This document shows, piece by piece, positions 2,547 to 56,547 of a stretch of DNA of 64,000 nucleotides. The position numbers were made by a program, and so were the translations under genes. A model generated the notes under the pieces. That model did no database searches and was not told the DNA's origin. It was given only the letters and a program-made list of their open reading frames with translations. The stretch spans positions 1 through 64,000 of IMG/VR virus record IMGVR_UViG_3300001765_000263, one strand, 5' to 3'. Each line of letters starts with the position of its first letter. Positions within the stretch are counted from its first letter, which is position 1. This DNA comes from a virus. Taxonomy: Duplodnaviria > Heunggongvirae > Uroviricota > Caudoviricetes.

Positions 2547-2547
2547 A

Positions 2548-3476: not shown

Positions 3477-3684
3477 TGAACTGACTGAATTTGTCAAACC
3501 AAAGAAAATCCGTAAGGATAAGAGGCATGGAGAGAAAGTATTTTTTGATGATGAACAAGACATGCACAAACGCGCAAAGCGTAAGGGACATAGTAAATTG
3601 AAACCTGTTGAAGTTAATCTTGATGATATTGATATCGATCATGAGTATGGAAATTTTGACGACTGGAAGAGGTATCTAAAATGA
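3463..3684 (+). CDS. small highly basic/acidic protein (73 aa)
   Basis: ATG at 3463 overlaps the previous gene. Lys/Arg-rich N-terminal half and Asp-rich C-terminal half. Confidence 0.4.
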   Translation: MKQLDELTEFVKPKKIRKDKRHGEKVFFDDEQDMHKRAKRKGHSKLKPVEVNLDDIDIDHEYGNFDDWKRYLK

Positions 3685-3860
3685 TTAAATACAAAATTGA
3701 ATTTTCGACGGGAGAAGTTAGACTAATATCATTCATTGACCAACAAGCGTTCAGCAAGTTTCTCGAAGATGAGGGCAAAAATATTATGTTCGCTGGACGT
3801 ATCATTGACGAACAGTTTGACCCATCCATTCGTGGAACTGGATCATTTTTACAAGAGTAA
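3681..3860 (+). CDS. small hypothetical protein (59 aa); not in the ORF track
   Basis: ATG at 3681 overlaps the TGA of the previous gene (ATGA). It ends 10 nt before the ATG at 3871 and explains the region better than the TTG-initiated 5' extension of the 3736 ORF. Confidence 0.3.
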   Translation: MIKYKIEFSTGEVRLISFIDQQAFSKFLEDEGKNIMFAGRIIDEQFDPSIRGTGSFLQE

Positions 3861-3870
3861 GGAAACCCGA

Positions 3871-4407: not shown

Positions 4408-4436
4408 TGATAAATTGCAGGTGCAGTAAAATGTTG

Positions 4437-4444
4437 TATAAATA
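4437..4444 (+). promoter_or_regulatory. T4-type late-promoter-like box, TATAAATA
   Basis: Exact TATAAATA about 95 nt upstream of the gp32 ATG, in an intergenic region. Confidence 0.35.
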
Positions 4445-30442: not shown

Positions 30443-30455
30443 AAAGGAAAAATAC

Positions 30456-33400
30456 ATGACAGTCAATTTAAACGTTGCACCATATTATGATGATTTCGAT
30501 CCATCTAAAAACTACCACAAAATTCTATTTGTTCCTGGAAGACCTATTCAAGCAAGAGAATTAACACAGATTCAATCGATTCTTCAACATCAAATAAAAC
30601 TCAATGGCGATTACATTTTCAAAAATGGGGCAATGGTTATCCCAGGTGGTGTGTCATATTTGAACAAAGTTCAATATATCAAATTGGAATCGCTATTCAA
30701 CGGTGTTGTCACAGATGACATCATCGCAAATATCTCTGGAAAGAAAATAGTTGGAGAATCGACAAACGTTAAAGCGACAGTTGTACATGTTGAACCATCA
30801 ACAAATACAGACACTCCAACAATTTATATTGCATACACATCTGGTGGCATTGTTGGTAGCACTTCATATAAAGAATTCACAATCAACGAAGTCCTTCACC
30901 TAGAAACAGATACAGATATTAAATTTCAAATTAAAAATCATTCAACATATACAGGGTTTGGGACACTAGCATCTATTCGAGAAGGCGTATATTATATCAA
31001 CGGGTTTTTCGTTCAGAACTTAGCGCAAACAATATCATTAGACAAATATGGCACAACTCCATCATATAAGGTCGGACTTGACGTTGTTGAAAATATTGTT
31101 ACTGCCACTGATGATGCTTCTATACGAGACAATGCGGTAGATTCTCCTAGTTATGGTGCTGCTGGTGCGGATAGATTACAAATTATTCTAACCATGAACA
31201 AGACACCATTGTTTGCAACTGAAGAGAATGTGAACAATACAACTGACAGTTTTATTGACTTGCTTCATGTTAAAGATGGGTATGAGCAATTCAAAATAGA
31301 TAAGACAGAGTTAGGAGAATTTGAAAAAACTCTTGCTCGTAGAACTTTTGATGAATCTGGTGACTATGTGGTTGAACCATTCGACATAAAAATCCATGAA
31401 TATAGAAATAATTTCAGGGGAGAATGGACTGTGAATACAGTATATTTGGAAGGCGACATTGTTACTACCAACACAAGTGATAATGATTATGCACCAACAG
31501 ACACATCATATTTTGTTGCAGAAAATTCTGGTGTCTCTGGGACAGCAGGAATAATTTTTAATTCTACAAGTGTTGAACAATATAATGATGGTGGATATAT
31601 TGTTTGGAATTATGAGAGAAAGCCAAAATTTAATGACGGACTATTTCAACCACAATTAACAGAATCTCTTGATACACAAATTGAAAACTCATTAAAAGCA
31701 GCATACAAAATTGCTGGCGGGAAAGCATATATCAAAGGGTATGAAATATCCAACCCAGGATATAAGATAGTTGATTTTAATAAAGCTAGAGCATATAAGA
31801 ACGTTCCCAATAGCAATGTGAATACTACCATGGGGCAGTATTTCTTAATACACAATCTACAGGGGTTATCATACTCACAATATCAACAGTTAGACTTGTT
31901 TGATAGTCTTGGCGTTCAAATTGGAACATGTATTTATAAAAATTTAGACTTTCACAGATTGGGAGTTGGTGGTCCAGAAACAAATCAATACAAATTGTTT
32001 GTTTTCGATATTCAGATGATTGAAGGTAACTACATTGAACAAATTAAGACTATTGCCGGTTCTGGATTTACTTGTTATGTGTATGGCGAAAGGAAAAAAG
32101 GGACTGGATCAGTTTCATTTGACGGGACGGATATATTTACTGGTACAGGAACGTTATTCACTACAGAGTTAAATGCCGGTGATATTATATACGTCGATGA
32201 TTCAAGATTTGTTGTTGCTAGTGTTTCATCTTCGATAGAATTGATTGTTGATGACACACAACTTCCAGATACATTGCCAACAGGGTACTATCCATTCTAT
32301 ACAGATAAAACCGCAGTTTATGGAACCCCTGGGTATATTAAAAAGCTCAACCACAATTCAGTTCGTTCTGTAAGAGGCAGTGATGATATTACTGTTGAGA
32401 CCACCTATTACGTAAATAGACTGTTTATAGAAAATTCAAACACAAACGTAATAACAATTACATTAACTAATCCAAATGAATCATTTGCGTCAGATCAGTT
32501 AGAAGGAAACTTCCTTGCAACACAAGGTTCTAATTTCCCTGTGTTGGGAGTGTCTGATGGCATTTTCACGGTTTCTGGTCCAACACTTAATATTCTTACT
32601 GTCACTGGATTTGATAATTTCTCAGGTATATACATCCAAACAACAATCAAAAAAGTCAATAGTGCAGCAAAAGAAAAACAATATTTGAAAGATTCGGATA
32701 TTAAATATGTCAACACACTAAGTCAGGCAAACGCTGACGAAATTCCATTAAATGGTGTAGCACTAAAATTAAGTGGAGTGTATCAAGCAGCAGATTTCAT
32801 ATTCGACTTTTCCCTTCCTGATGCAATTGTTGATCCTGGGCATATTGGATATTATACAATTGATGTGACAAAAAATTATGTGATAGGATCAAACGATACA
32901 CAAAACTATACCACTGCATCATATTTAAAACCAGTCAATGGATTTATACCATCCGGTCCAATCCTTATTGTATATGAAATTCTTCAACCACAAACAAATG
33001 GTGACTACTTCTCTATAAATTCATATAACGATGTGCCATACGCAGATATGCCAACATATAACGGCACAAGTATTGGTGACTATATTGATTTTAGACCAGT
33101 AAAAGAATATGACCCAAATCCTCTTTTTGTATCACAATCAGAAGCAATTTCATCGAGATATCCGTTTACATTAGACTATTCTGCATATCTTCCTCGATAC
33201 GACATTGTTCAATTGGATCCCTCTGGAAATTTCAGAATCGAAGAAGGTATTCCAAGTGACAAACCAGTAGCACCAATTCAAAATGACAATAACGTAATCA
33301 TTTCATATGCCAAATTGTCTCCATACACAATAAAGGCAGATACGAATAACATCATATTAAAAATGAATGACCTTCGTAGATACACCATGCGTGATATTGG

Positions 33401-36400
33401 TAAGATAGACAATCGTCTTAAAAACGCGGAGTATTATGTTGCTCTTACATCATTAGAAAGAGAGACAAGCGAACTTCAAATCAAAGATGAAAACGGTTTG
33501 GATAGATATAAAAATGGTTTCATCATTGATCAGTTTAAGGATCATGGTATCGGCAATATTTCAAACGTTGACTATAAATGTGCAGTTAGCCCAAAAGAAT
33601 TAGAGTGTCGTCCAACATATTACGCAGATAGCATAAAATTATTTGAAAACCTAGCAACTTCTAGAGCATCTAAACGTTATCAAATTACTGGTGATTTAGT
33701 TACTCTTCCATACACAGAAGTTCCAGTGATTGAACAAAAAATTGCTACAAGTGCAGAATATATTACTGCATATGCAAAGATAAGATCAATGACAGGAGAT
33801 TTAAAGTTATATCCTGCAGGTGACACATGGGTCGATACTGAAACCTTGCCAGAAGTTACACAACAAAGTGAAGGAAATTTCAACGCACTTCAAATACTTG
33901 CTCAATCGACCGGCATTTTGGGGGTAGTGTATGGAGGGTGGAAAGTAGACTCTCGCACCAACATAAGTTCTAACGTTAGTGTTGGTCAATCATCATCAAC
34001 AGTAAATAATGCCTTTGGTGGGTCTGCAACAACAGTTGTAACCACTACAACACTAAATGGTACAGATTCTGTTGATTTATCAAGAGAGGGGGTTGATACT
34101 CAAATTGCAGAGAGATATGACGAGGTTGGTCGTGTTACCGGTATTGTTGACCAATCATGGTCTCCTGCAATGCGCGAGAAAGCAATTGTGCTCTATTGCA
34201 AGAAGATGATGCCACTTACACCATTTGATGCATATATTGATAATATGCTTTTGACAAAATATATTGTTCCTGCATCAACAATATATTATACCTCAAAAGT
34301 AGGAAATTTCCTAGATTATTCAACATCAGATATTGATCATACTGACTTAGTGTCTCGTCAATATGGTGTGAATGAATATGACATTCTAGAACGTGGTGAG
34401 GTCATTGTTGGGCAAACATCAAACGCAACTGCAATTACAATATGTGAAGAAAGACAAAACACTAATGGTGTTGTTGAAGATGTTCTTAGGGTAGTCAATA
34501 TTAAAGGAACCTTTGTATTAGGCGAAACCATTACAGGTCAATCGTCTGGTGCGACTCTTAAATATGATGGAGTGAATACAGACTTAGTTATAAGAACGAC
34601 AAGTTCTGGTTCATTTTATGGTATTTTCATGTTGCCAAACAACGACGAACATTTGATTTACTCTGGTATTGTTACAGTGTCATTACGTAATAATCCAGAA
34701 ATGAAAGAGTCGAGCACGAGTGCTGAAGCAGCATACGATGGACATGGACTAGTACAACAAAAGCAAACTACTGTCATGTCAGTTCGTAATGCAGTATTAA
34801 TTCAAACTGATATACATGAAGAAAAAACGGAAATACAAAATTGGAGCAGACCAATATCATCAACATCGTCAACCTCTTTGTCTGGACCGCAATCTGCACC
34901 ACCCCCACCACAAAACTGTCGAGCACAAAACTGTGGTGGAGGTGGAGGTGGAGGTTTTGGAGGTGGGGGGAGAAGTTTAAATTGTAACTGTTCTGGACTG
35001 ACTGACCCATTGGCACAGACATTTATGCACAATGATCGTGGTGGTATCTTTATCACGTCAATGGATATATTCGTTCATACTTTAGATACAGAATCTTCTG
35101 CTGGAATTATTTTGCAGATACAAGAAGTGGTTAATGGATATCCAGGTCAAACAGTTGTTCCATTCAGCACTGTTACAAAACTAAATCATGAAATAAACGC
35201 ATCTTCGACAACGTTAGTGCCAACAAATTTCAAATTTGAGTCACCAGTATTCTTGAAAGAAAACACAGACTATTGCTACATTTTATCTACTGATCAATCA
35301 AATACAAAAGTATGGGTTGCTAAGATGGGTGAAGTTGGTTTGGATGGTCAAGTAGTTGTCAAACAACCAAATATGGGGTCGTTCTTCAGATCACAAAACG
35401 CATTAACATGGACATCTGATCAAATGGTTGATGTTTCGTTTGTGTTATACAAGGCAAAATTTGATATTAATGGTACTGGAACGTTCTCAATGAAGAGTTC
35501 AATTACAGATAAACTCTTAGTTGCATCAAACCCATTCAAGTTTACTGACGGAGAAAAATTAGTTAGGGTGTACCATAGGAACCATGGAATGGTGAATGGA
35601 AGTTCTGTAACATATAGTGGAGTTGATATTACTGGTTCGTCATATCCAACAAAAGCAGTTATGAATTCATCATTTATTATTTCTAATGCTGAACTTGATA
35701 CATACACAATTACGTTGCCATCTGCTGCAGAAAAATCTGGTTTGTTTGGTGGTGGTTCTGTCAAATCTACAGTGTGTAAGAGGTTTGACACTGCGTATTT
35801 AAACGGATCCGATTTTGTTTTGCCAAGTACGCACATTGATTATTCTATTAGAACAAGTATTGAAGGAACTAATAGAGTGTATAGATCACCAACATCTAGT
35901 ATTATTCAAATCAAACAAGATTTACATTATGATGTCCCTCAATTTGCATTGTCTCCAGAGAATGAAAGACTGTTCTTAAATGGTGATGCATCATTGAATG
36001 TTGAGGCATTCTTGTATAGTAACAACGAAAATGTATCACCAGTTATAGATTTCCCAACATTTGCTTTATTTGCTATAAGTAATAAGATCAACAATCCTAC
36101 TGAAGATTTGAATTTGGAAATTGACAGTCAGGGAATCATTAACTTAGCACAACCAGATGTTGGTGGTGTGGTTGAAGTTACACTTCACAGCATAATAATA
36201 TCTGGAGCATTTGTTCCTTCTCTAGTAAATCGTTTGGATATGTTTAGAGTTGGGAAGTATATTTCTATTCAATCAGAAGAGGCAGCACCAGTACCACCAA
36301 GAAAGATTGTGAAACTAGACAAACAGTATTCATCAAATTATTTTGAAGTGTTTGTTGATCCATTAGATACATTACAATTTAATGCGAACACTGGTCTTGT

Positions 36401-36839
36401 AGATCCAGTAACGATTTTCCAATACAATCATTATACTGATGTCATTTCACCAAATGCGACAAGCAACCTTGCAAATTATGTAACTCGCATTGTTACTTTG
36501 AGCAAACCATCGACTGGCATTAGAATATTGTTTGACTATAACAAACCATCAGAGTCTTTCATTGACATCTACTACAAGGTATGTATGTCTGCTGATTACA
36601 CCGATTTAGAAAAAGTGAACTGGATAAATCTGGAAGAAAACTCATCACCAAAGGTTGAGTATAAAGATAGTCAAAACTACAACACCTTCATTGAACATGA
36701 GATAAATATATCTGACATATCTGAAATAACAGACGCATATTCTGAATATGATCAAATAATGGTGAAGGTTGTAATGAGATCTAACAATACTGCTAGATGT
36801 CCAAGAATCAAGAATTTCAGATTGATTGCACTTGCATGA
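30456..36839 (+). CDS. giant modular fibre/baseplate-appendage protein (about 2127 aa). Modules: N-terminal anchor (APYYDDFD...), shared module B, a Cys/Gly-rich linker, then the DPLAQTF C-terminal module.
   Basis: Probable ATG at 30456 with AAAGGA upstream (the track's 30432 start is a TTG). The first approximately 450 aa are paralogous to the 36847 gene. aa about 870-1130 and about 1500-2127 are paralogous to the 40599 gene. Confidence 0.6.
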   Translation: MTVNLNVAPYYDDFDPSKNYHKILFVPGRPIQARELTQIQSILQHQIKLNGDYIFKNGAMVIPGGVSYLNKVQYIKLESLFNGVVTDDIIANISGKKIVGESTNVKATVVHVEPSTNTDTPTIYIAYTSGGIVGSTSYKEFTINEVLHLETDTDIKFQIKNHSTYTGFGTLASIREGVYYINGFFVQNLAQTISLDKYGTTPSYKVGLDVVENIVTATDDASIRDNAVDSPSYGAAGADRLQIILTMNKTPLFATEENVNNTTDSFIDLLHVKDGYEQFKIDKTELGEFEKTLARRTFDESGDYVVEPFDIKIHEYRNNFRGEWTVNTVYLEGDIVTTNTSDNDYAPTDTSYFVAENSGVSGTAGIIFNSTSVEQYNDGGYIVWNYERKPKFNDGLFQPQLTESLDTQIENSLKAAYKIAGGKAYIKGYEISNPGYKIVDFNKARAYKNVPNSNVNTTMGQYFLIHNLQGLSYSQYQQLDLFDSLGVQIGTCIYKNLDFHRLGVGGPETNQYKLFVFDIQMIEGNYIEQIKTIAGSGFTCYVYGERKKGTGSVSFDGTDIFTGTGTLFTTELNAGDIIYVDDSRFVVASVSSSIELIVDDTQLPDTLPTGYYPFYTDKTAVYGTPGYIKKLNHNSVRSVRGSDDITVETTYYVNRLFIENSNTNVITITLTNPNESFASDQLEGNFLATQGSNFPVLGVSDGIFTVSGPTLNILTVTGFDNFSGIYIQTTIKKVNSAAKEKQYLKDSDIKYVNTLSQANADEIPLNGVALKLSGVYQAADFIFDFSLPDAIVDPGHIGYYTIDVTKNYVIGSNDTQNYTTASYLKPVNGFIPSGPILIVYEILQPQTNGDYFSINSYNDVPYADMPTYNGTSIGDYIDFRPVKEYDPNPLFVSQSEAISSRYPFTLDYSAYLPRYDIVQLDPSGNFRIEEGIPSDKPVAPIQNDNNVIISYAKLSPYTIKADTNNIILKMNDLRRYTMRDIGKIDNRLKNAEYYVALTSLERETSELQIKDENGLDRYKNGFIIDQFKDHGIGNISNVDYKCAVSPKELECRPTYYADSIKLFENLATSRASKRYQITGDLVTLPYTEVPVIEQKIATSAEYITAYAKIRSMTGDLKLYPAGDTWVDTETLPEVTQQSEGNFNALQILAQSTGILGVVYGGWKVDSRTNISSNVSVGQSSSTVNNAFGGSATTVVTTTTLNGTDSVDLSREGVDTQIAERYDEVGRVTGIVDQSWSPAMREKAIVLYCKKMMPLTPFDAYIDNMLLTKYIVPASTIYYTSKVGNFLDYSTSDIDHTDLVSRQYGVNEYDILERGEVIVGQTSNATAITICEERQNTNGVVEDVLRVVNIKGTFVLGETITGQSSGATLKYDGVNTDLVIRTTSSGSFYGIFMLPNNDEHLIYSGIVTVSLRNNPEMKESSTSAEAAYDGHGLVQQKQTTVMSVRNAVLIQTDIHEEKTEIQNWSRPISSTSSTSLSGPQSAPPPPQNCRAQNCGGGGGGGFGGGGRSLNCNCSGLTDPLAQTFMHNDRGGIFITSMDIFVHTLDTESSAGIILQIQEVVNGYPGQTVVPFSTVTKLNHEINASSTTLVPTNFKFESPVFLKENTDYCYILSTDQSNTKVWVAKMGEVGLDGQVVVKQPNMGSFFRSQNALTWTSDQMVDVSFVLYKAKFDINGTGTFSMKSSITDKLLVASNPFKFTDGEKLVRVYHRNHGMVNGSSVTYSGVDITGSSYPTKAVMNSSFIISNAELDTYTITLPSAAEKSGLFGGGSVKSTVCKRFDTAYLNGSDFVLPSTHIDYSIRTSIEGTNRVYRSPTSSIIQIKQDLHYDVPQFALSPENERLFLNGDASLNVEAFLYSNNENVSPVIDFPTFALFAISNKINNPTEDLNLEIDSQGIINLAQPDVGGVVEVTLHSIIISGAFVPSLVNRLDMFRVGKYISIQSEEAAPVPPRKIVKLDKQYSSNYFEVFVDPLDTLQFNANTGLVDPVTIFQYNHYTDVISPNATSNLANYVTRIVTLSKPSTGIRILFDYNKPSESFIDIYYKVCMSADYTDLEKVNWINLEENSSPKVEYKDSQNYNTFIEHEINISDISEITDAYSEYDQIMVKVVMRSNNTARCPRIKNFRLIALA

Positions 36840-36846
36840 GGTAACT

Positions 36847-38607
36847 ATGCCAAAAGAGTTTAATGCTGCACCATATTATGATGATTATGATGAAAGCAAA
36901 AATTATCACAAAATAATCTTCAACCCTAATGCGACATTGCAGTCGAGAGAATTAACACAACTGCAGTCTGTTATTCAAAATCAGGTGGAGCGTCTCTCGA
37001 ACTTTACCTTTGAAAATGGTGCAATGGTAATACCAGGAAATATATCCTACATCGGCAATTCGATATGTGTCAAGATTGATAAATTGTACAATGGATTATC
37101 CGTGGCAAACTATATTGGGACTATGACAGATAAAATTGTCGTAGGTAGTGACACCAATGTACGAGCAAAAATATATCATTCTGGTGTAGACTTGGATTCT
37201 GCTTATGTATTCATTTCATATATTTCTGGTGGTATTGACTCTTTTGGAACTCATCATGCAGAATTTGTTCAGGGAGAAACTTTAACATTACTAGACAAAA
37301 GCAATTCAATCAATGTGTCTAATGAAGAAGAGTTTTATTCTTATGGTTCTCTAGCTACAGTAAATGCGGGAGTTTATTATTTTAACGGATATTTTGTAGA
37401 GAACCAAAAACAAACTATTACAATAGACAGATACAGCACAGAACCATCTTGCCAAATTGGGTTTAATGTTGAAATTCAATCCGTATCATCAATTGATGAT
37501 GAATCACTGACAGATAACTCTTCCGGTTTCAACAATCCTGTTGCTATCGGTGCAGATAGAATGAAAATTGATCTTGTTTTAAGTAAGCACGATTACTTTT
37601 CTACATTAACAAACATCAAATTTATATCACTTCTTAGAGTCAAAGATGGAACAATTCAGTCTATTGTTAATAAGACACAATTGAGTAGAATGGGAGACTT
37701 GTTAGCAAAGAGAACATATGAAGAATCTGGAGATTACTTAGTAAAACCATTTAAATATGAACTGTTTGATTATAGAGATAATAGACGTGGTGAATGGGTA
37801 GGGAAAACTGCATATCTTGCTGGAGACATTTGTCAAATTGAAGCTAACGGAAATGTGCTAACCTTAATGGCATTGTCTGACGGCATATCTTCCTCAGTAA
37901 AACCAAAAGAATCAATCGGAATAATAAAAGACGGAAGTTTAAGATGGGTGGTAACATCAAAACCATATTATAACAAAGGATATGCATCACCATCGAATAC
38001 AGACACCCTAGAACAACATATGGAAAATGCAGACCTCGGTGTTTTAAAAATATCTGGTGGTCAAGCATATCTTCGTGGCAAGGATGTTGATTTAAGAAGT
38101 GGATTTAAAACTGTGGTTTTTACAAAAGCGCGGGATTCTAAAAAAATGGATCCATTTTATGTTGAATCTCCTGTTGGTCAATATTTGTTGGTAACAAAAG
38201 TAATAGGATTGCCTGTCATAACTACTGTAGATGAAACCAACTATGCGCTTAAGACACATAATATATTAGATCAAGGTGGTGGAGTTATTGGGTCATGCAA
38301 AGTAAGAAATTTTGAGTTCCATGCATCAAGCAAATACATTTTTGACAACAACACTTTTAGTGTATATAAAATCCATGTGTTTGATATACTATTTCTTAAT
38401 GGAAAAAGTCTAGGGAATGATGCTGCCTATATAGGTTCTAAAGATGGAACTTTTTTGGCAATGATAACAGGTGATTTATTACAACTGCCTGGGTTTATAA
38501 ATAGGTCGACAAATATTGGTAACGATAATATCTTTGCTGGCACAGGGAATGTTCTGAACAATCATCTTAAGGTAAGAGATAAAATTTATGTTAAAGAGAA
38601 TGTGTAA
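36847..38607 (+). CDS. paralogue of the giant fibre protein's N-terminal about 590 aa, carrying the same N-terminal anchor module (APYYDDYDESKNYHKIIF...RELTQLQS)
   Basis: ATG at 36847 with GAGGT upstream (the track's 36826 start is a TTG). Similarity to the 30456 product is collinear over hundreds of residues (GVYYFNGYFVENQKQTI..., ESGDYLVKPF..., RRGEWVGKTAYLAGDI). Confidence 0.55.
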   Translation: MPKEFNAAPYYDDYDESKNYHKIIFNPNATLQSRELTQLQSVIQNQVERLSNFTFENGAMVIPGNISYIGNSICVKIDKLYNGLSVANYIGTMTDKIVVGSDTNVRAKIYHSGVDLDSAYVFISYISGGIDSFGTHHAEFVQGETLTLLDKSNSINVSNEEEFYSYGSLATVNAGVYYFNGYFVENQKQTITIDRYSTEPSCQIGFNVEIQSVSSIDDESLTDNSSGFNNPVAIGADRMKIDLVLSKHDYFSTLTNIKFISLLRVKDGTIQSIVNKTQLSRMGDLLAKRTYEESGDYLVKPFKYELFDYRDNRRGEWVGKTAYLAGDICQIEANGNVLTLMALSDGISSSVKPKESIGIIKDGSLRWVVTSKPYYNKGYASPSNTDTLEQHMENADLGVLKISGGQAYLRGKDVDLRSGFKTVVFTKARDSKKMDPFYVESPVGQYLLVTKVIGLPVITTVDETNYALKTHNILDQGGGVIGSCKVRNFEFHASSKYIFDNNTFSVYKIHVFDILFLNGKSLGNDAAYIGSKDGTFLAMITGDLLQLPGFINRSTNIGNDNIFAGTGNVLNNHLKVRDKIYVKENV

Positions 38608-40583
38608 TGGCTAATGTATTTAGAAAATATAAAGTAAGTGGGTTTGAAACATTTACAGAAAATTCAATGACTGTTGATCCTCTTATAGAAAACGGATACT
38701 TAGTACAGTGTGAGGTGTTTAAAGAAAAGCAGATTGCTACATTAGGAGATGGAGATTCTTTAGTTGCAAAATTGCAGCATGAGTATATTAAAAACACTCA
38801 TGATGAAGATGGAAAATCACAACTAGTGTATTATGTCAATAGAACATTTCAAGCTAGGGCAGATGGATATGGAACATTATCTATATCATTAAACACAGAA
38901 GGTGAAACTTTTCCAGCAGAAAATCCTGAATTATTTTTGGTTTCTCGTGTCGTAAATGATGGGGAATACGGGGTATATACTGCACCGGAACATATTGAAA
39001 ATGACGGGGTTGGGGTAAATTCAAATTCAAACGTGTATTTAAACAGTGACTTCACTAGGGCATATTTTGAAGGATTAAGTGGTGGGGACGAATATAGAGT
39101 TATCGCCACTGTTAAAAAAGAAGGTAGTGCAGTAAGAGAGAAAACAAAAACACTTAACACAAAAACCATCTTTATAAATAAACTTTCAAAGTGTAGTAAG
39201 ACTGAAATACAATTAGGTAAGGCAGACGTTGTTGCGTTACTGTCTGTAAAACAATCAAGTGGTGAAAAGTTTAATCCATCAAATCCAGACACATTTTTGC
39301 CGTATGTTGCTACAAGTGAGGTGGATGTCAGTGATGCATATAAACTAGACCCAAAGACAACCGAAAATTTTTATGGTAATAGTACCATAGTCTCTGTAAA
39401 AGATTTCACTCCTGCTGCACCACTAAAAATAACCTTTTTATATTATGAACACTCTGACGGTGATGTATATACAGTAAATTCGTATGATCATCTACTCAAT
39501 TTTATTCCAACATACTCAAACCTTTCTCTCGGATCATGTTTAGACTTTAGACCAAAAGCATCTAGTTTAAATATATATTATGAAGATGAGACAGGTGGGC
39601 AGACTGATAATGACGACGACCCAACTACACCAACAGAATCATCACAGAATAAAACTATATGGGCAATTGGCGGCGAACAAGGATGTCAATTAGGAGTTGG
39701 CAACCATTTGGTTGAACAAATTGAACAAATTGGACCAGATCTTGGCAATACGTGGTCACAAATATCTGTTGGATATCCACATGGTATGGCAATTAAACAA
39801 GATGGGTCGTTATGGGGATGGGAAACTAGAACTAGTGGTGGTGATGGTGCAATAGATTATTTTCCGTTAGGATTGCCATCAGTTACTATGCCAGAATGCA
39901 CAATATTTCAAATATTACAAGAAAATATTGATTGTAATTTGAAGACTGCTGACTACGATCCAACAATACAAGACTGGAATTGGAAGATGGTTGCTTGTGG
40001 ATATAACACTACAATTGCGGTCAAAACAGATGGTACATTATGGTCAGTTGGTCTTAATGATGTTGGGCAATTGGGGCAAGGTGATACAACAAATAGAATA
40101 GAATTCACCAGAATAGGAACAGAAACAAATTGGGATAAATGTTACATGGGGAATAAATCTGCTGCAGCAATCACTAAAGATGGAGATGTGTTTACTTGGG
40201 GAGAAAATACAAACTGTCAATTAGGGTTAGGGCATACAAATACTGTGTATGCTCCAGAACAAGTAGAGTTTGATGCTGATCCAGACCACAATGTCAAGAT
40301 TAAAGAAGTATCTATTTCTGTAAATGGACTATTTATGACTGCAGTTAGTCAAGCAGGTGGTATATATGGATGGGGGTATGACGAATTTGGGACTCTATTT
40401 CCACAGTGTGGTGGTGGAAGTGGGGAAAGTGGGGAAAGTGGTATAACTGCTATATGCACCCCATGTAGATTTGGTAAAAAATGCGATTGGGATAATATAT
40501 CGTCAGGAGACAATTTCATTGCAGCAATCAAGACAAATGGAACAATATGGACTTGGGGTGGAACTGGCGAAAATCCACCATGA
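38607..40583 (+). CDS. structural protein with a unique N-terminal half (about 330 aa) and a C-terminal RCC1-like beta-propeller region
   Basis: ATG overlaps the previous TAA. C-terminal blades include VACGYNTTIAVKTDGTLWSVGLNDVGQLGQGDTTNR... and VFTWGENTNCQLGLGHTNTVYAPEQV. Confidence 0.55.
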   Translation: MANVFRKYKVSGFETFTENSMTVDPLIENGYLVQCEVFKEKQIATLGDGDSLVAKLQHEYIKNTHDEDGKSQLVYYVNRTFQARADGYGTLSISLNTEGETFPAENPELFLVSRVVNDGEYGVYTAPEHIENDGVGVNSNSNVYLNSDFTRAYFEGLSGGDEYRVIATVKKEGSAVREKTKTLNTKTIFINKLSKCSKTEIQLGKADVVALLSVKQSSGEKFNPSNPDTFLPYVATSEVDVSDAYKLDPKTTENFYGNSTIVSVKDFTPAAPLKITFLYYEHSDGDVYTVNSYDHLLNFIPTYSNLSLGSCLDFRPKASSLNIYYEDETGGQTDNDDDPTTPTESSQNKTIWAIGGEQGCQLGVGNHLVEQIEQIGPDLGNTWSQISVGYPHGMAIKQDGSLWGWETRTSGGDGAIDYFPLGLPSVTMPECTIFQILQENIDCNLKTADYDPTIQDWNWKMVACGYNTTIAVKTDGTLWSVGLNDVGQLGQGDTTNRIEFTRIGTETNWDKCYMGNKSAAAITKDGDVFTWGENTNCQLGLGHTNTVYAPEQVEFDADPDHNVKIKEVSISVNGLFMTAVSQAGGIYGWGYDEFGTLFPQCGGGSGESGESGITAICTPCRFGKKCDWDNISSGDNFIAAIKTNGTIWTWGGTGENPP

Positions 40584-40598
40584 AACAAAGGAATATAA

Positions 40599-43500
40599 AT
40601 GGCTAACGAATGTTTAGGATGGGAACAGGACAATCTTCTTTTCGATACAGATGATGATGATTGGGGGCAAAGAGGTTGGCCACTCGATGAGTGGAAAGGT
40701 ATATCAGCAGGATATAGAAATATTCTCGCTATTAAAAAAGATGGAACATTATGGACATGCGGGGATATTGATGCATGGCAAATAACTGGAGACGGATATC
40801 CAGTAATGATAGATGAATCTACTGATTGGTCTTTTGTCGGTAGTTCTTATGATAACGAATGGGGGGAAATAGTTTTATATGGAATGAAAACCTTATCTAG
40901 TTCATCAGAACAAGAAGTATTGACAGACACAGATATAGAATTTAAAACAGACAATAACACCGACATTGTTAGGTTAGATACCTCTGACCCATCAACAACA
41001 AATATCGGTAGTTTTGTGTATGCAAAACATTTAGGGGACGCATCAGTTCCAGAACCATTGTCGTCTAAATTTCCAATTCAGATAGCATATGATTATTATT
41101 TACCAAGAAGAGATATTTTAGAAATAAATGACAAGGGTGGGTTTAGATTGGAGCAAGGAATATCTGGTGATACTCCTGCAACACCAATGACCAATGAAGA
41201 TTATACTCTTTTGGCAAAATTAGAACTTCGTCCTTACAATGCAAATGTTAAAAATAGCATTAGCATAAAAGAAGACCCAATTCGCAGATATACCATGCGT
41301 GATATTGGACATCTTGAAAAAAGACTTGAGAACACAGAATTGACAATATCATCAATTGCAGTTAATGATGTCACAGCATCAATCAAAACTCTCGATGAAA
41401 ATGGATTGAATAGATTTAAATGTGGGTTCTTAACTGATACTTTTACTGATCATGCGAAATCCAATGTTGCAGATCCATCATTTAAGGTCGCAATTGATTA
41501 TATGAAACAAGAATGCCGTCCTACATACTATGCAGACAATATTAAATTGATTGAAGCAGATAAGAACCTAAGAAAGAACAACTTCTACACAGTGTCTGGT
41601 GATCTAGTGACATTGCCATACATAGAGGTAGAATTCCTTGGGAATATGTACGGGTCAACACCTCAAAATATCACACCTCTAACAAATATTAGAAGAAAGA
41701 ACGGGACGCTCAATATTTGGCCAACCTCAGATTCATGGATGTCAACAGAGCAGACGGCAGACATTAATCAGATAAGTGATGGCAACTACACGTCAATGAA
41801 ACAGATTGTTGACAAATTGGATGTCACTGGAACTGTTTATGGTGCATGGACAGAAGTTGACAAAAACATCGAAGTAACTGGCAATACAACAAGAACCGAA
41901 ACTGTCGGATGGACAACCAACACAATAAACACACAAACTGGCGTAATAACGACTGATTTTATACGAGAAGGTGAAGAAACATATGCTGAAGAGATAGAGA
42001 CTGAAATTGGTAGAGTCAATCTTATGCAAACCTCTGCATGGGATGAACACATCAGATCAAGATCAATCGTGTTATATGCACAAGGGTTCTTACCACAACA
42101 TAATATGTTTGTGATTGTTGATAACTACGACCTATCTGAATTTGTTGAACCTGCTAGAAGTATTGCATACACATCGAAAACTGGAACATTTTTAAACTAT
42201 TTGAATTCATCGATAGATCATTCGAATCTCGAATATAGACAGTATGGAGATAATTCATACAATATTCTAGAACGTGGTGAAATAGTTATTGGACAAACAT
42301 CTAATGCTTCTGCGATATTATTGAATGATGAATATGGCAATTTAAAAGTTGTTAATGTCAAGGGTGATTTTTCCGTTGGGGAAATTGTTTTGGGAATGAC
42401 CTCTGGTGCATCAGTTGTTATTAGCGGGTTAAGTGATGATTCATTACAAACGAGTCAATCAGGAACATTTTATGGAATATTGAATCTTCCGTCAGATTCT
42501 AAACATAAAATTTATAGTGGCATTATGCCAATTGTGATAAGAGATAGTTTAATTGCAGAACAAGCAACCACATCAGGGTCAGCAACTTATGATGCACATG
42601 GTATATCAAATACTGCAAATACCACAATTATGTCAGTGAAAAATTTGGATGTTGGCAAGAGAAAGATTATTGAGACAAACACTACTGTCGAAAACTTTTC
42701 CACATCAACTGTCGTGTCCTCAGTGATTGATTGGGCGGCATTTATTGCTGCTAATATTCAAGCTGGAGATGGAGGTGGAGGTGGAGGTGGAGATCCACTA
42801 GCGCAATCATTCCAAATTCAATCAGACGCGGGTGGAGTGTTTATAACTCATATTGATTTATTTGTGTATAGTGTTAATCAAACAGAACCAGTGTTTTTGG
42901 AAATTAGAGAAATGTTCAACGGATTTCCATCAACAACAGTAGTTCCCATGAGTACTGTGTATAAAAATGTGGAAGATCTAACCCCATCTACGACTGAACT
43001 TATACCAACATCATTTGTATTTGAATCCCCAATATTCCTTAAGAGTGGCACTGAGTATTGTTTTGTCATTGGTTCCCCATATATGGGTGATCAAGGTGTT
43101 GAAGTGTGGGCATCTGTATTAGGTGATGTTGATATCTATGGCAACACTACAATAGACCAACCATCTTTTGGATCAATGTTTATATCTCAAAATGGTTCAA
43201 CATGGGATGCTGAACAATATAAAGATGTGTGTTTTATGATACATAAAGCACAATTTGATACTACCAACGTAGGTCAAGTGATGTTTGTCAATAATAAATT
43301 TGATTATGACAAGATGGATATTGATCCTATAAGGGTAAAAACCGGCATAAGTGAAGCAAGAGTATTACATAAAAATCATGGGTTTGTTGTAGGGGATGCA
43401 GTCACTATTAACGATCCAAACGATGAATTGGTTGGTAGTACGAGTTTTTCTGCTATTACAAAGACATTTAATATTACAAATACGACGTTAGATTCTTTTA

Positions 43501-44570
43501 TGATACCGATCAATGCTGCAAGCATGGATGTTTGGACTGGAAAGAGTTCTATATCTCTCTCCACCAACAAGAAGTTTGATGAATTGTATCTTGATGGTAG
43601 AGATTTTGTTTTACCAAATACTCAAGTCGAATACAGATTCAAGAAGACTACGTTAGCAAGAAAACTTGATACAATGTATTATCCAATTAATCTAAAACAA
43701 ACATATGCCCTTGACGATTCTGGATGGATTCTCTCTGAAGAGAATGAAGATCTTTTCTTAGATGGAGAAAAATCCTTCTATACAAAAGCACTGTTATATT
43801 CGTCACATCCTGATGTGTCGCCCGTAATTGATTTGTCAACATACTCCGTAAATTGCATAACAAACAGAATTGACAATATGTTGCCCGAATATAGTAATAG
43901 ACAAGTTGATGATGTTTTAATTCATGATGGCACAAATACATATGATTTTGAGGTTGTTGATGATGGACTTTATATCATAACCTGTGATGGTATTAATGAT
44001 AAATTTAAAGTTGGTGGTGTTATATATTTTACCGGTGGAGATGCCCCATGCTTAAACACTAACATTGACATGATAATTATTAATAAAACAGCAACAACCA
44101 TATTGGTTAAACCTGTCAATGATGTAGAGATTTTACAAGAAGAAGTAATACTAGATGCTGATATGGACATTCATCAGTATGATTTTTATGTGGATTCTGT
44201 TTCCCCAACATCACAGTCAAACGCAGCAAGTTATGTTCCATTAACATTTACAACAACAATACCTGCAAAAGGGTTTATCATGTTGTTTGATTATAACGTG
44301 CCAACATCTACATCTATTAGACTTTTCTATAAGACATCCCACACGTCGAAAATAGAAGATATAAATAAGAAGTCGTGGGTGGAATTTCCAGAAGAAAATG
44401 TTACTCCTTATATAAATTCATCTAATCCAACGCATTATATTGAAAAGCGCATTGATATTGATACAATCGATGACACTTTTGACACGTTATCAGTAAAGGT
44501 TGAATTTAGATCAGACATCACTACGAAAATTCCAAAAATCAAAAACTTTAGAATATTGACGGTGGTCTAA
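40599..44570 (+). CDS. mosaic fibre protein (1323 aa): a short N-terminal RCC1 segment, shared module B, a poly-Gly linker, then the DPLAQSF C-terminal module
   Basis: YLPRRDILEINDKGGFRLEQGISGDTPATP / RRYTMRDIG / ECRPTYYADNIKL / GDLVTLPYIEV match the 30456 product. GGGGGGGDPLAQSFQ...VFITHIDLFVY...FNGFPSTTVVPMSTV... and the C-terminal PKIKNFRILTVV match its C-terminal module. Confidence 0.6.
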   Translation: MANECLGWEQDNLLFDTDDDDWGQRGWPLDEWKGISAGYRNILAIKKDGTLWTCGDIDAWQITGDGYPVMIDESTDWSFVGSSYDNEWGEIVLYGMKTLSSSSEQEVLTDTDIEFKTDNNTDIVRLDTSDPSTTNIGSFVYAKHLGDASVPEPLSSKFPIQIAYDYYLPRRDILEINDKGGFRLEQGISGDTPATPMTNEDYTLLAKLELRPYNANVKNSISIKEDPIRRYTMRDIGHLEKRLENTELTISSIAVNDVTASIKTLDENGLNRFKCGFLTDTFTDHAKSNVADPSFKVAIDYMKQECRPTYYADNIKLIEADKNLRKNNFYTVSGDLVTLPYIEVEFLGNMYGSTPQNITPLTNIRRKNGTLNIWPTSDSWMSTEQTADINQISDGNYTSMKQIVDKLDVTGTVYGAWTEVDKNIEVTGNTTRTETVGWTTNTINTQTGVITTDFIREGEETYAEEIETEIGRVNLMQTSAWDEHIRSRSIVLYAQGFLPQHNMFVIVDNYDLSEFVEPARSIAYTSKTGTFLNYLNSSIDHSNLEYRQYGDNSYNILERGEIVIGQTSNASAILLNDEYGNLKVVNVKGDFSVGEIVLGMTSGASVVISGLSDDSLQTSQSGTFYGILNLPSDSKHKIYSGIMPIVIRDSLIAEQATTSGSATYDAHGISNTANTTIMSVKNLDVGKRKIIETNTTVENFSTSTVVSSVIDWAAFIAANIQAGDGGGGGGGDPLAQSFQIQSDAGGVFITHIDLFVYSVNQTEPVFLEIREMFNGFPSTTVVPMSTVYKNVEDLTPSTTELIPTSFVFESPIFLKSGTEYCFVIGSPYMGDQGVEVWASVLGDVDIYGNTTIDQPSFGSMFISQNGSTWDAEQYKDVCFMIHKAQFDTTNVGQVMFVNNKFDYDKMDIDPIRVKTGISEARVLHKNHGFVVGDAVTINDPNDELVGSTSFSAITKTFNITNTTLDSFMIPINAASMDVWTGKSSISLSTNKKFDELYLDGRDFVLPNTQVEYRFKKTTLARKLDTMYYPINLKQTYALDDSGWILSEENEDLFLDGEKSFYTKALLYSSHPDVSPVIDLSTYSVNCITNRIDNMLPEYSNRQVDDVLIHDGTNTYDFEVVDDGLYIITCDGINDKFKVGGVIYFTGGDAPCLNTNIDMIIINKTATTILVKPVNDVEILQEEVILDADMDIHQYDFYVDSVSPTSQSNAASYVPLTFTTTIPAKGFIMLFDYNVPTSTSIRLFYKTSHTSKIEDINKKSWVEFPEENVTPYINSSNPTHYIEKRIDIDTIDDTFDTLSVKVEFRSDITTKIPKIKNFRILTVV

Positions 44571-44761
44571 TGGATAAATTATCAAAGCGAAATGGGGTTG
44601 TTATAAACAATGATACTGCAGCATATGACAGGTATATGACAGAGAGGAACAAACTGAAAGCAGCAAATAATGAGATGAATATCTTAAAAACCAGAATAAC
44701 CAAACTGGAATCTGAAATGGAGGATGTTAAGGTTATCCTTAAACGATTGATAGAAAGATAA
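44570..44761 (+). CDS. small coiled-coil protein (63 aa) directly upstream of the radical-SAM gene
   Basis: ATG overlaps the upstream stop. Heptad-like sequence ...NNEMNILKTRITKLESEMEDVKVILKRLIER. No Cys. Confidence 0.4.
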   Translation: MDKLSKRNGVVINNDTAAYDRYMTERNKLKAANNEMNILKTRITKLESEMEDVKVILKRLIER

Positions 44762-44765
44762 TATA

Positions 44766-56546: not shown

Positions 56547-56547
56547 A

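What the first reader, a model, noticed from the sequence alone, without database searches (positions are those of the whole stretch)
34888..35016. Cys- and Gly-rich micro-motif in the 2127-aa fibre protein: a candidate rSAM/SPASM target and a slippage-prone linker
Residues ...PPPPQNCRAQNCGGGGGGGFGGGGRSLNCNCSGLTDPLAQTF... combine four cysteines (NC...NC...NCNC) with a poly-Gly tract, directly before the conserved DPLAQ(T/S)F block that begins the C-terminal module. The paralogue 40599 has GDGGGGGGGDPLAQSF at the matching position (42761-42815) but no cysteines. The DNA is tandem (ggtgga)n in both genes, so Gly-linker length can change in frame by slippage. Cys-rich Gly-flanked cassettes are typical substrates of SPASM thioether-forming enzymes. 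The rSAM gene lies two genes downstream.
Basis: inference. Interest (0 to 1): 0.6.

Follow-up and report, generated by a model that had tools for sequence, protein, structure and literature searches.

The report
Asn-Cys array: likely radical-SAM target
A short run of asparagine-cysteine pairs in the flexible tether of a phage baseplate protein matches a motif that, in hundreds of other phages, sits beside the same radical-SAM enzyme, so that enzyme probably modifies phage tail proteins chemically, which I could not find described in the literature.

Summary
Residues 1483-1523 of the 2127-aa protein (30456-36839) read PPPQNCRAQNCGGGGGGGFGGGGRSLNCNCSGLTDPLAQTF. All four cysteines follow an Asn.

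The carrier is a DUF4815 "tripod" baseplate protein, like gp119 of Staphylococcus phage 812. The motif lies in a predicted disordered tether just before the near-invariant DPLAQ(T/S)F start of a lectin-like beta-sandwich.

The Cys cluster alone is weak statistics. The comparative evidence is strong:
- The rSAM/SPASM gene (44766-46145) belongs to a large phage family.
- In 69 of 83 loci with that family, a tail protein nearby carries three or more [N/A/D/Q]-Cys repeats (0.6 expected).
- The reverse search recovers the enzyme in at least 55 of 88 loci.
- Two syntenic relatives that have the rSAM carry NCNC..C arrays at exactly this linker position.
- The relative that lacks the rSAM has NWNW there.

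Best reading: the array is the enzyme's substrate and is probably thioether-crosslinked. That chemistry is inferred, not shown.

The slippage idea is only weakly supported. The hexamer repeats exist, but independent assemblies show no length polymorphism. The rSAM gene lies four ORFs (five called genes) downstream, not two. Asn, not Gly, is the conserved partner of Cys.

I found no description of this enzyme-motif pairing.

The parts
30456..36839 (+). Tripod-like baseplate protein A (2127 aa; DUF4815/VrlC/phrog_358), the carrier of the motif
   Evidence: Pfam DUF4815 at 1.8e-55. phrog_358 at E=0. PDB 9EUF phage 812 tripod protein at 2.3e-27 and 1.2e-13. Foldseek top hits are 9EUJ, 9EUI and 9EUF.
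34752..34997 (+). Predicted disordered tether (aa 1433-1514) between the upstream beta region and the leg-like domain
   Evidence: AlphaFold2 model me2f670d23387 has pLDDT below 50 for model residues 94-175. The sequence is hypervariable among homologues.
34914..34934 (+). First half of the array: N-C-R-A-Q-N-C (N1487 to C1493)
   Evidence: The DNA is a 9-nt direct repeat, caaaactgt..caaaactgt.
34935..34970 (+). Gly tract G7-F-G4, with (GGTGGA)x3.5 at 34935-34955
34980..34991 (+). Second half of the array: N-C-N-C (N1509 to C1512). It matches the family signature [NADQ]C repeats.
   Evidence: The same position holds NCNCACNCACDC and NCNCACDC in L004, and NCNCNC and NCNCDC in L166.
35004..35024 (+). 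DPLAQTF, the near-invariant first strand of the C-terminal lectin-like beta-sandwich (leg-like domain)
   Evidence: Present in 48 of 50 homologues. pLDDT above 85 from this residue on. Aligns to residues 789-964 of phage 812 gp119. Foldseek hits to the Cwp84 lectin-like domain, which PMC13433997 equates with the tripod leg domain.
36826..44570 (+). Paralogue B of the tripod gene, here split into three ORFs (36826-38607, 38607-40583, 40599-44570) with an inserted RCC1 propeller. Its linker (42762-42791, GDG7) has no Cys; DPLAQSF is at 42792-42812.
   Evidence: It is a single 2017-2090 aa ORF with an NC array in L004 and L166.
44570..44761 (+). Conserved 63-aa ORF between paralogue B and the rSAM gene. 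It is not specific to rSAM-bearing relatives.
   Evidence: Gene call in L164. Homologues in L001, L004, L166 and RSP15 orf43.
44766..46145 (+). Radical SAM/SPASM enzyme (459 aa). It has CX3CX2C at C79/83/86 and a 7-Cys SPASM motif at C315, C334, C374, C377, C383, C387 and C399.
   Evidence: Pfam Radical_SAM and Fer4_12. NCBIfam best hits are PapB, CcpM, anSME, QhpD and the SCIFF maturase, all far below cutoff. All 10 Cys are invariant in 38 homologues. AF2 pLDDT is 90.8, and Foldseek top hits are anSME, CteB, TigE, ChlB, SuiB and SkfB.

Best explanation
The four Asn-Cys dipeptides (NC-x3-NC, Gly tract, NCNC) are this phage's version of a recurrent (Asn/Ala/Asp/Gln-Cys)n array. That array is the recognition and modification site of the co-encoded radical SAM/SPASM enzyme (44766-46145).

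Proposed mechanism:
1. During virion assembly in the host cytoplasm, the enzyme binds the exposed, unstructured array in the tether.
2. The tether precedes the lectin-like 'leg' domain of the trimeric tripod baseplate protein.
3. By analogy with sactisynthases, ranthipeptide synthases and NxxcB, a substrate Cys thiolate ligates an auxiliary Fe-S cluster. The 5'-deoxyadenosyl radical abstracts an H atom from a neighbouring residue, and a C-S (thioether) bond forms.
4. The product would be a rigid, protease- and oxidation-resistant, possibly inter-chain-stapled joint in a part of the baseplate exposed to the environment.

Shown here:
- the motif and its position;
- the enzyme's rSAM/SPASM architecture;
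- the two-way genomic coupling of enzyme family and motif;
- conservation at the same linker position in rSAM-bearing relatives, and absence in the rSAM-lacking relative.

Inferred: that the enzyme acts on this array, that the chemistry is thioether formation, and what the modification does for the virion. The Gly tract is an ordinary flexible spacer. Its length drifts between lineages, and it is not the feature linked to the enzyme.
For: 1. rSAM-anchored sample. 414 relatives were found in IMG/VR and 80 loci fetched. 69 of 83 loci have three or more [NDAQSG]C repeats in a gene, against 0.6 expected from within-protein shuffles; 76 of 83 have two or more. Most arrays lie within 2 kb upstream or 1 kb downstream of the rSAM, on the same strand. 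The loci span 24 rSAM clusters at 70% identity.

2. Three unrelated carrier architectures:
- tail fibres ending in (NC)n, with PHROG tail-fibre hits;
- an unannotated NC-rich family next to the enzyme;
- tripod proteins.
Cultured examples are Achromobacter phage JWF gp28 (NCNCDCNCNCSC followed by a Hint domain) with gp30, and Ralstonia phage RSP15 orf48 (ends ..NCQCGN) with orf45.

3. Tripod-anchored sample, chosen without regard to the rSAM. 10 of 11 rSAM-positive loci have the motif, against 10 of 69 rSAM-negative loci. Most of those 10 are contigs cut just after the carrier. Fisher P = 1e-6.

4. Motif-anchored sample. (AAYTGY)4 is read as NCNCNCNC in 88 loci, and at least 55 contain an rSAM homologue in the short stored piece.

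5. Synteny.
- L004/L169 (rSAM 60% identical): TNCNCACNCACDCGSDPLSQTF and VNCNCACDCG8DPLAQSF.
- L166 (rSAM 54% identical): VNCNCNCGDPLAQTF and TNCNCDCG5DG4DPLAQSF.
- L001 has the same gene order without the rSAM: SNWNWGGGGRDPLAQTF, encoded AAC TGG AAC TGG.

6. The window's array is the only such motif in about 73 kb of the contig. The rSAM retains every invariant residue.

7. The residues alternating with Cys are N 179, A 87, D 49, Q 11. This is the acceptor set reported for the Cys-Asn beta-thioether synthase NxxcB (PMC9389541).

8. The enzyme has exactly 7 conserved SPASM cysteines and no eighth. From my own knowledge of anSME and CteB structures, this fits an auxiliary cluster with an open site for a substrate thiolate.

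9. The site is predicted disordered and exposed.
Against: - No biochemical or mass-spectrometry data exist for any member. The coupling is genomic only.
- The window's array is the weakest version seen: one CxC plus two isolated NC, split by a 15-residue Gly-rich spacer. It lies 9.8 kb from the enzyme, whereas most carriers lie within 2 kb.
- Many rSAM-bearing phages have tripod proteins with no Cys at this position (DTGWYDPLAQTF). The tripod is therefore an occasional carrier, not the usual one.
- The contig continues about 8 kb past what I could scan, and the complete genome is unknown. Another carrier could exist.
- The best structural match of the enzyme is anSME, which makes formylglycine rather than a thioether.
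- All NCBIfam hits are far below family cutoffs, so the chemistry cannot be assigned by homology.
Confidence: 0.6

Rival explanations
1. The enzyme does act on the array, but the chemistry is not thioether formation. One option is anSME-like oxidation of Cys to formylglycine, whose aldehydes could then react with neighbouring side chains. Others are epimerisation or a different radical cross-link.
For: The top Foldseek hits of the rSAM model are anSME structures 4K36-4K39, with TM about 0.63 on the target. Database annotators call relatives 'anaerobic sulfatase-maturating enzyme' or 'AslB'. anSME acts on proteins without a leader peptide, as would be required here.
Against: The anSME recognition motif C/S-x-P/A-x-R is absent, and no sulfatase is encoded nearby. 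The best HMM matches are thioether formers (PapB 80.8 bits, CcpM, QhpD, SCIFF maturase), with anSME at 62 bits. Only 7 SPASM Cys are conserved, whereas anSME uses 8 (my own knowledge). The N/A/D/Q alternation resembles thioether acceptor sets (PMC9389541).
Confidence: 0.15
2. The Cys array is a metal-binding or disulfide element and is not an rSAM substrate. Alternating Cys would line the three-fold axis of the trimer and chelate metal ions, much as His-x-His repeats chelate iron in the T4 gp37 tip. In this window specifically, CX4C...CXC would form a Zn knuckle or two disulfides around a Gly loop.
For: CxC repeats are classic thiolate-cluster motifs (metallothioneins; my own knowledge). The carriers are trimeric fibre proteins. 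The window has four Cys in a CX4C-X16-CXC arrangement. Virions are extracellular, so disulfides could form.
Against: This reading does not explain the tight two-way coupling with one rSAM/SPASM family across three unrelated carrier types. It also does not explain the replacement of Cys by Trp in the rSAM-lacking relative. The CX4C spacing is not conserved; relatives have CxCxC. The region is predicted disordered rather than a folded knuckle.
Confidence: 0.12
3. The motif is a functionless low-complexity product of replication slippage in a hypervariable linker. Short DNA repeats (caaaactgt x2, aaytgt x2, ggtgga x3.5) happened to encode Asn-Cys and Gly. The nearby rSAM serves another substrate, or none in this phage.
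For: The DNA is visibly repetitive. The linker is the most variable part of the protein family: T-, R-, P- or G-rich in different homologues, and Cys-free in 48 of them. The window's array is degenerate compared with relatives. Paralogue B has lost, or never had, the array.
Against: NC units recur at the same position in three lineages whose proteins are only 37-48% identical and whose surrounding linker does not align. All four Cys follow Asn, about 2.5e-5 by composition. The rSAM is intact with all invariant residues, and no other candidate substrate was found in about 73 kb.
Confidence: 0.13

Closest known systems
Sactipeptide and ranthipeptide maturases (CteB, SkfB, AlbA; PapB; SCIFF maturase)
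   Same: The rSAM core is followed by a SPASM domain with 7 conserved Cys. These are the best HMM matches (PapB, CcpM, SCIFF maturase) and close structural matches (CteB 5WHY/5WGG, SkfB 6EFN). Their substrates are Cys-rich segments encoded next to the enzyme.
   Different: Those substrates are short leader-bearing precursor peptides that become secreted natural products. Here the carriers are 100-2100-aa virion tail proteins, with the array at a C-terminus or inter-domain linker and no evident leader. Scores are far below every family cutoff (80.8 against 340 for PapB). The enzyme's N-terminal 45 residues form a small three-stranded sheet plus one helix, not a full RRE.
NxxcB/NxxcA (Cys-Asn beta-thioether RiPP of streptococci)
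   Same: Asn is the native acceptor and Cys the donor. The tolerated acceptors (Asn, Ala, Gln, Asp; PMC9389541) are the four residues that alternate with Cys in the phage arrays. NCNC contains an N-x-x-C unit.
   Different: Orthology of the enzymes was not tested, and NxxcB was not among the listed NCBIfam hits. The phage motif has a period of 2 rather than isolated NxxC units. The substrate is a structural protein.
QhpD/QhpC (quinohemoprotein amine dehydrogenase maturation)
   Same: An rSAM/SPASM enzyme installs several Cys-to-Asp/Glu thioethers in a protein subunit that stays part of a functional complex. This is the nearest precedent for a protein substrate that is not a RiPP. It is an NCBIfam hit at 1.3e-15.
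   Different: The score is 57 bits against a cutoff of 453. There is no CxC or NC repeat in QhpC (my own knowledge). The context is bacterial periplasmic enzyme maturation.
Anaerobic sulfatase-maturating enzyme (anSME)
   Same: Best structural match. It acts on Cys in a full-length protein without a leader, and it is the usual database label for this phage family.
   Different: There is no sulfatase and no C-x-P/A-x-R motif. The score is 62 bits against a cutoff of 349. Only 7 auxiliary-cluster Cys are conserved rather than 8.
Tripod protein gp119 of Staphylococcus phage 812 / DUF4815 / VrlC-like virion proteins
   Same: The carrier protein is a member of this family by sequence and fold. DPLAQSF begins the homologous block at residue 789 of gp119.
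   Different: gp119 and 48 of 50 homologues have no Cys in the preceding linker. The phage 812 work does not report an rSAM gene or a Cys array (PMC13433997).
His-x-His iron ladder of the T4 gp37 fibre tip; HK97 capsid isopeptide chainmail
   Same: By analogy only. One is a period-2 repeat of a ligand residue in a trimeric fibre. The other is covalent cross-linking used to toughen a virion.
   Different: The residues and chemistry differ, and neither needs a dedicated radical enzyme (my own knowledge; not tested here).

Membership tests
Radical SAM / SPASM-domain enzymes (the enzyme at 44766-46145) | CX3CX2C motif binding the SAM cluster | tested here: met
   C79-N-Y-T-C83-D-Y-C86, invariant in 38 homologues. 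Pfam Radical_SAM at 5e-14, above cutoff.
Radical SAM / SPASM-domain enzymes (the enzyme at 44766-46145) | C-terminal 7-Cys SPASM motif: CX9-15GX4C ... CX2CX5CX3C ... C | tested here: met
   C315-x13-G-x4-C334, then C374-x2-C377-x5-C383-x3-C387, then C399. All are invariant.
Radical SAM / SPASM-domain enzymes (the enzyme at 44766-46145) | Fold of the peptide- and protein-modifying SPASM enzymes | tested here: met
   AF2 pLDDT 90.8 and pTM 0.90. Foldseek E of 1e-12 to 1e-9 to anSME, CteB, TigE, ChlB, SuiB and SkfB.
Any characterised equivalog (PapB, CcpM, anSME, QhpD, SCIFF maturase, DynA, YhhB ...) | Score at or above the curated NCBIfam cutoff | tested here: not met
   The best is PapB at 80.8 bits against a cutoff of 340. 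anSME scores 62.4 against 349, QhpD 57 against 453, and the SCIFF maturase 56.9 against 425.
Tripod / DUF4815 baseplate proteins (the carrier) | DUF4815 profile match above the gathering score | tested here: met
   188.8 bits against a cutoff of 30. phrog_358 at E=0.
Tripod / DUF4815 baseplate proteins (the carrier) | Sequence and fold similarity to the solved tripod protein (phage 812 gp119) | tested here: met
   phmmer 2.3e-27 for the N-terminal part and 1.2e-13 for the DPLAQ block. Foldseek 7.7e-11 to 9EUJ.
Tripod / DUF4815 baseplate proteins (the carrier) | Trimeric assembly on baseplate arms | not testable with these tools
   Only a monomer model could be made. The position next to a T4 gp8-like wedge gene (28952-30442) fits a baseplate role.
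Sactipeptide/ranthipeptide RiPP precursor | Short precursor peptide with an N-terminal leader recognised by an RRE | tested here: not met
   The carrier is a 2127-aa structural protein with the motif at residues 1487-1512. The enzyme lacks a full RRE domain.
Sactipeptide/ranthipeptide RiPP precursor | Cys thiols converted to thioether bridges | not testable with these tools
   This needs mass spectrometry or NMR.
Phage (Asn-Cys)n array with cognate rSAM/SPASM (grouping defined here) | Two or more consecutive [N/A/D/Q/S/G]-Cys dipeptides in a tail or baseplate protein | tested here: met
   NCNC at residues 1509-1512, plus two further NC dipeptides at 1487-1488 and 1492-1493. The carrier is a baseplate protein.
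Phage (Asn-Cys)n array with cognate rSAM/SPASM (grouping defined here) | An rSAM of this family on the same strand within about 10 kb | tested here: met
   The rSAM starts 9.8 kb downstream on the same strand. It is 41-60% identical to the enzymes of JWF, RSP15, L004 and L166.
Phage (Asn-Cys)n array with cognate rSAM/SPASM (grouping defined here) | Three or more repeats, as in 69 of 83 loci | tested here: not met
   The window has only two consecutive repeats. It belongs with the weaker minority of loci, such as RSP15, L058, L062 and L064.
Zinc ribbon or knuckle | Two conserved CX2-4C pairs in a folded mini-domain | tested here: inconclusive
   CX4C and CXC are present. The spacing is not conserved in relatives, and the segment is predicted disordered. 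A monomer model cannot exclude metal-dependent folding.

The most novel reading that the evidence does not exclude
A large, so far undescribed family of phage radical SAM/SPASM enzymes modifies virion tail proteins rather than small peptides. The family has more than 1,200 members in metagenome protein data and more than 400 in IMG/VR. It occurs in myo- and siphoviruses of unrelated lineages.

The targets are tail fibres, an NC-rich protein family and tripod baseplate proteins. The enzyme would recognise a portable (Asn/Ala/Asp/Gln-Cys)n array and install a ladder of thioether, possibly inter-chain, cross-links. That would be a covalent staple for receptor-binding organelles, comparable in principle to HK97 capsid chainmail but made by radical chemistry. 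The motif in this window would be one such site, placed on the tether of the mobile leg domain.
Probability: 0.4. Interest if true: 0.9.

Novelty: new variant of a known kind. Interest (0 to 1): 0.8.

Why it matters
If confirmed, rSAM/SPASM cross-linking would extend from secreted RiPP peptides, and a few enzyme subunits, to the structural proteins of viruses.

- It would explain an often-annotated but unexplained 'anaerobic sulfatase maturase / AslB-like' gene in phage tail modules.
- It would add a new post-translational modification to phage receptor-binding machinery, with consequences for virion stability, host-range engineering and cryo-EM model building (unexplained density at Cys ladders).
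- It would give enzymologists a leader-independent, repeat-recognising maturase with a very simple portable tag, (NC)n.
- It is directly testable in cultured systems: Achromobacter phage JWF gp28 with gp30, and Ralstonia phage RSP15 orf48 with orf45.

Tried and rejected
- **Near-identical DNA in the phage collection.** Megablast of 30432-46145 found no match.
- **Single-protein scan of IMG/VR with the rSAM.** It found nothing. An alignment of three orthologues was needed.
- **Linker-length polymorphism.** An exact 26-mer scan of IMG/VR found no copy of this phage. The Logan assembly SRR931349 is identical to the window over 14.9 kb. Five assemblies of the L004 lineage are identical across the array and the Gly run. 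No polymorphism was seen, but no read-level data were available.
- **Literature.** Eight full-text searches found no paper linking an rSAM enzyme to tail-fibre cysteines. They covered radical SAM with tail fibre, SPASM, thioether, maturase and anaerobic sulfatase, phage JWF, and the literal string NCNCNC. The cyanophage S-SCSM2R paper mentions an rSAM maturase, but in an unrelated 'antibiotic synthesis' context.
- **Family libraries for the carriers.** Pfam, PHROGs and NCBIfam have no model for the NC-rich family next to the enzyme, or for the C-terminal fibre tip.
- **A small precursor peptide next to the rSAM.** The only small ORF (63 aa, 44570-44761) has no Cys and is also present where the rSAM is absent. 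Rejected as a substrate.
- **Other carriers in the contig.** None was found in the window or in 9 kb beyond it.
- **The opposite-strand control for the motif count.** It was contaminated, because the reverse complement of (AACTGC)n also encodes alternating Cys, and high-GC loci give spurious ORFs. I replaced it with a non-overlapping gene set and within-protein shuffles.
- **A link between the rSAM and the sulfotransferase at 62485-63264.** Considered because of the anSME resemblance. Rejected because the gene is 16 kb away, no sulfatase is present, and the rSAM-array coupling holds in phages without such genes.
Full report
**1. The observation**

The window is a 36% GC phage segment with a T4-type baseplate module. 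The ORF at 28952-30442 matches T4 gp8.

The ORF 30456-36839 encodes a 2127-aa protein. Tandem Repeats Finder confirms (GGTGGA)x3.5 at 34935-34955. It also finds (TGGAGG)x4.8 at 42764-42792 in the paralogue, which reads AGDGGGGGGGDPLAQSF without Cys.

Shuffling this protein gives 4 Cys within 25 residues in only 0.5% of trials. Some protein in the window would show such a cluster in 57% of trials, so on its own this is not remarkable. Two other features are specific. All four of these Cys follow Asn, while none of the protein's other ten Cys does. And this is the only [NDAQSG]C x2 motif in any real gene of the window and the following 9 kb.

The rSAM gene is at 44766-46145. That is four ORFs (five called genes counting a 63-aa ORF) and 7.9 kb beyond the 2127-aa gene, not two genes.

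**2. The carrier protein**

It is a DUF4815 / VrlC / phrog_358 protein. About 1,600 phage records contain a relative of its C-terminal part.

The only solved relative is the 1152-aa "DUF4815 domain-containing protein" of the Staphylococcus phage 812 baseplate (9EUF). PMC13433997 describes it as the tripod protein gp119. [quoted passage not shown]

DPLAQ(S/T)F is nearly invariant, in 48 of 50 homologues. It can be the very start of a protein. In one relative the gene is split exactly there (L001 g3|g4).

An AlphaFold2 model of residues 1340-1780 gives pLDDT below 50 for aa 1433-1514, which includes the motif. pLDDT is above 85 from DPLAQTF onward, in a beta-sandwich. Foldseek matches the phage 812 tripod chains first, and also the lectin-like domain of Cwp84. 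The phage 812 paper uses Cwp84 as its comparison for the leg domain, which moves 88 A on contraction. I therefore infer that the motif sits in the flexible tether of the leg-like domain. The linker is hypervariable and Cys-free in all other database homologues.

**3. The enzyme**

The 459-aa protein has these features:
- the CX3CX2C motif (C79/83/86);
- a complete 7-Cys SPASM motif (C315, C334, C374, C377, C383, C387, C399);
- all ten Cys invariant in 38 family members.

Its best NCBIfam matches are thioether-forming maturases (PapB, CcpM, QhpD, SCIFF maturase), along with anSME. All are far below cutoff. The AlphaFold2 model is confident (pLDDT 90.8). It resembles anSME, CteB, TigE, ChlB, SuiB and SkfB.

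**4. The decisive evidence is comparative**

*Cultured relatives.* The closest enzymes in cultured phages are in Ralstonia phage RSP15 and Achromobacter phage JWF, at 41-42% identity. Both lie inside tail-fibre modules.
- JWF gp28, a tail fibre, contains ...KPRQNCNCDCNCNCSC immediately followed by a Hint domain.
- RSP15 orf48, a side tail fibre, ends ...NTNCQCGN.
- RSP15 orf44, next to the enzyme, is a DUF4815 homologue.

*rSAM-anchored sample.* An alignment of the three enzymes retrieved 414 relatives from IMG/VR, and 80 loci were examined.
- In 69 of 83 loci a gene carries three or more [NDAQSG]-Cys repeats, against 0.6 expected from within-protein shuffles. 76 of 83 carry two or more.
- The exceptions are mostly contigs cut close to the enzyme.
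- The arrays lie mostly within 2 kb upstream or 1 kb downstream, on the same strand.
- The residues alternating with Cys are N 179, A 87, D 49 and Q 11.
- The carriers fall into three unrelated architectures: tail fibres ending in (NC)n, an unannotated NC-rich family beside the enzyme, and tripod proteins.
- The sample spans 24 rSAM clusters at 70% identity.

*Tripod-anchored sample.* In 80 loci chosen without regard to the enzyme, 10 of 11 rSAM-positive loci have an array, against 10 of 69 rSAM-negative loci. Most of those 10 are truncated just after the carrier. Fisher P = 1e-6.

*Motif-anchored sample.* Searching IMG/VR for (AAYTGY)4 gives 88 loci where it is read as NCNCNCNC. At least 55 contain an rSAM homologue in the short stored fragment, including more distant enzymes at 24-31% identity.

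**5. The same position in close relatives**

Three lineages share the order tripod A, tripod B, 63-aa ORF, rSAM.

| Lineage | rSAM | Tripod A linker | Tripod B linker |
|---|---|---|---|
| Window | present | NC-x3-NC, G7FG4, RSL, NCNC | GDG7, no Cys |
| L004/L169 | 60% identical | TNCNCACNCACDC-GS-DPLSQTF | VNCNCACDC-G8-DPLAQSF |
| L166 | 54% identical | VNCNCNC-G-DPLAQTF | TNCNCDC-G5DG4-DPLAQSF |
| L001 | absent from its slot | SNWNW-GGGG-R-DPLAQTF | no Cys |

L001 keeps the gene order, and the protein downstream of the rSAM slot is still present. Its NWNW is encoded AAC TGG AAC TGG, one third-position change per codon away from NCNC.

In more distant tripod homologues that also have the enzyme, the tripod linker is Cys-free and other proteins carry the array. 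The tripod is thus an occasional host of a portable motif.

**6. Mechanism**

*Shown:* the motif, its exposed position, the enzyme's architecture, and the two-way coupling.

*Inferred:* the enzyme modifies the array, most likely by forming Cys thioethers. Three points favour this:
- The best sequence matches are thioether formers.
- The alternating residues N, A, D and Q are the acceptor set reported for the Cys-Asn beta-thioether enzyme NxxcB (PMC9389541).
- Only seven auxiliary-cluster Cys are conserved. From my own knowledge of CteB versus anSME, this fits an open iron site for a substrate thiolate.

A formylglycine-type or other reaction is not excluded, and anSME is the best structural match. 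The benefit to the phage is speculation. It could be a rigid, protease- and oxidation-resistant, possibly inter-chain-stapled joint or fibre tip.

**7. The slippage idea**

The hexamer repeats are real. Gly-run length differs between lineages, and the NC arrays also look expandable: L004 has AACTGTGCATGT x2. However, two independent assemblies of this phage and five of the L004 lineage are identical across the linker. No copy was found in IMG/VR. This part of the interpretation remains plausible but unsupported.

**8. Novelty**

Eight full-text searches found nothing that links rSAM enzymes to tail-fibre or baseplate cysteines. The family libraries have no model for the carriers. Databases label the enzyme only 'radical SAM', 'AslB' or 'anaerobic sulfatase maturase'.

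The general kind, an rSAM/SPASM maturase with a Cys-rich substrate, is well known. The substrate class (virion structural proteins), the period-2 Asn-Cys tag and the lack of a leader appear to be new. I therefore rate it a new variant of a known kind, with high interest.

**Caveats**

- All the evidence is genomic.
- The window's array is the weakest form of the motif, and it is unusually far from the enzyme.
- About 8 kb of the contig and the rest of the genome were not examined.

Noticed in passing
window 36826-44570: The second tripod paralogue is a single 2017-2090-aa ORF in relatives (L004 3533-9802, L166 3741-9794). Here it is three ORFs (36826-38607, 38607-40583, 40599-44570). An RCC1 beta-propeller is inserted across the 40583|40599 junction, and the Cys array of its linker is missing.
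   Followed up: partly
window 44570-44761: A conserved 63-aa ORF lies between tripod B and the rSAM gene. Homologues occur in L001 (no rSAM), L004, L166 and RSP15 orf43, which is annotated as a virion structural protein. It has no Cys, so it is not a precursor peptide.
   Followed up: partly
window 47895-62438: Five consecutive large ORFs are made of RCC1/WD40_RLD repeats, with Cys recurring about every 50 residues. This is an unusually large block of RCC1-repeat proteins downstream of the baseplate genes.
   Followed up: no
window 62485-63264 and beyond (L292 10001-20780): A sulfotransferase gene is followed, past the end of the window, by several methyltransferases and glycosyltransferases. 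I saw no connection to the rSAM-array coupling.
   Followed up: partly
L001 2560-2650 (gene g1, 62-4441): The rSAM-lacking relative has NWNW (AAC TGG AAC TGG) where rSAM-bearing relatives have NCNC. This is one third-position change per codon.
   Followed up: yes
L001 7891-10534 (g3|g4): Tripod paralogue B is split into separate genes exactly at the linker. g3 ends ...SSVTRDV and g4 starts MSNIAPLAQSF, which shows that the DPLAQSF module can be an independent polypeptide.
   Followed up: partly
L003 7676-9124 (Achromobacter phage JWF gp28): The Hint (intein-like) domain starts at the last Cys of NCNCDCNCNCSC. Self-cleavage would leave the (NC)n array at the extreme C-terminus of the fibre, as in most other carriers.
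   Followed up: partly
L077 8008-9087: Three tandem ORFs of about 120 aa encode the same fibre-tip domain, each ending ...SLTNCNCACDCL. The arrangement resembles multi-copy precursor genes.
   Followed up: no
e.g. L012 11465-12376, L072 7006-8031, L086 13406-13789: A family of 130-340-aa proteins lies directly next to the rSAM. They carry several NC arrays (GNCNNGNC..NCNC..NCNCACNC) and have no Pfam, PHROG or NCBIfam match. This is the commonest carrier type, and some members have a long C-terminal extension after ...NCSKIICAKL.
   Followed up: partly
L181, L233, L245, L272, L288, L200, L254: NCNCNCNC arrays also sit beside much more distant rSAM homologues (24-31% identity to the window's enzyme). 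The coupling may therefore extend beyond this one enzyme clade.
   Followed up: no
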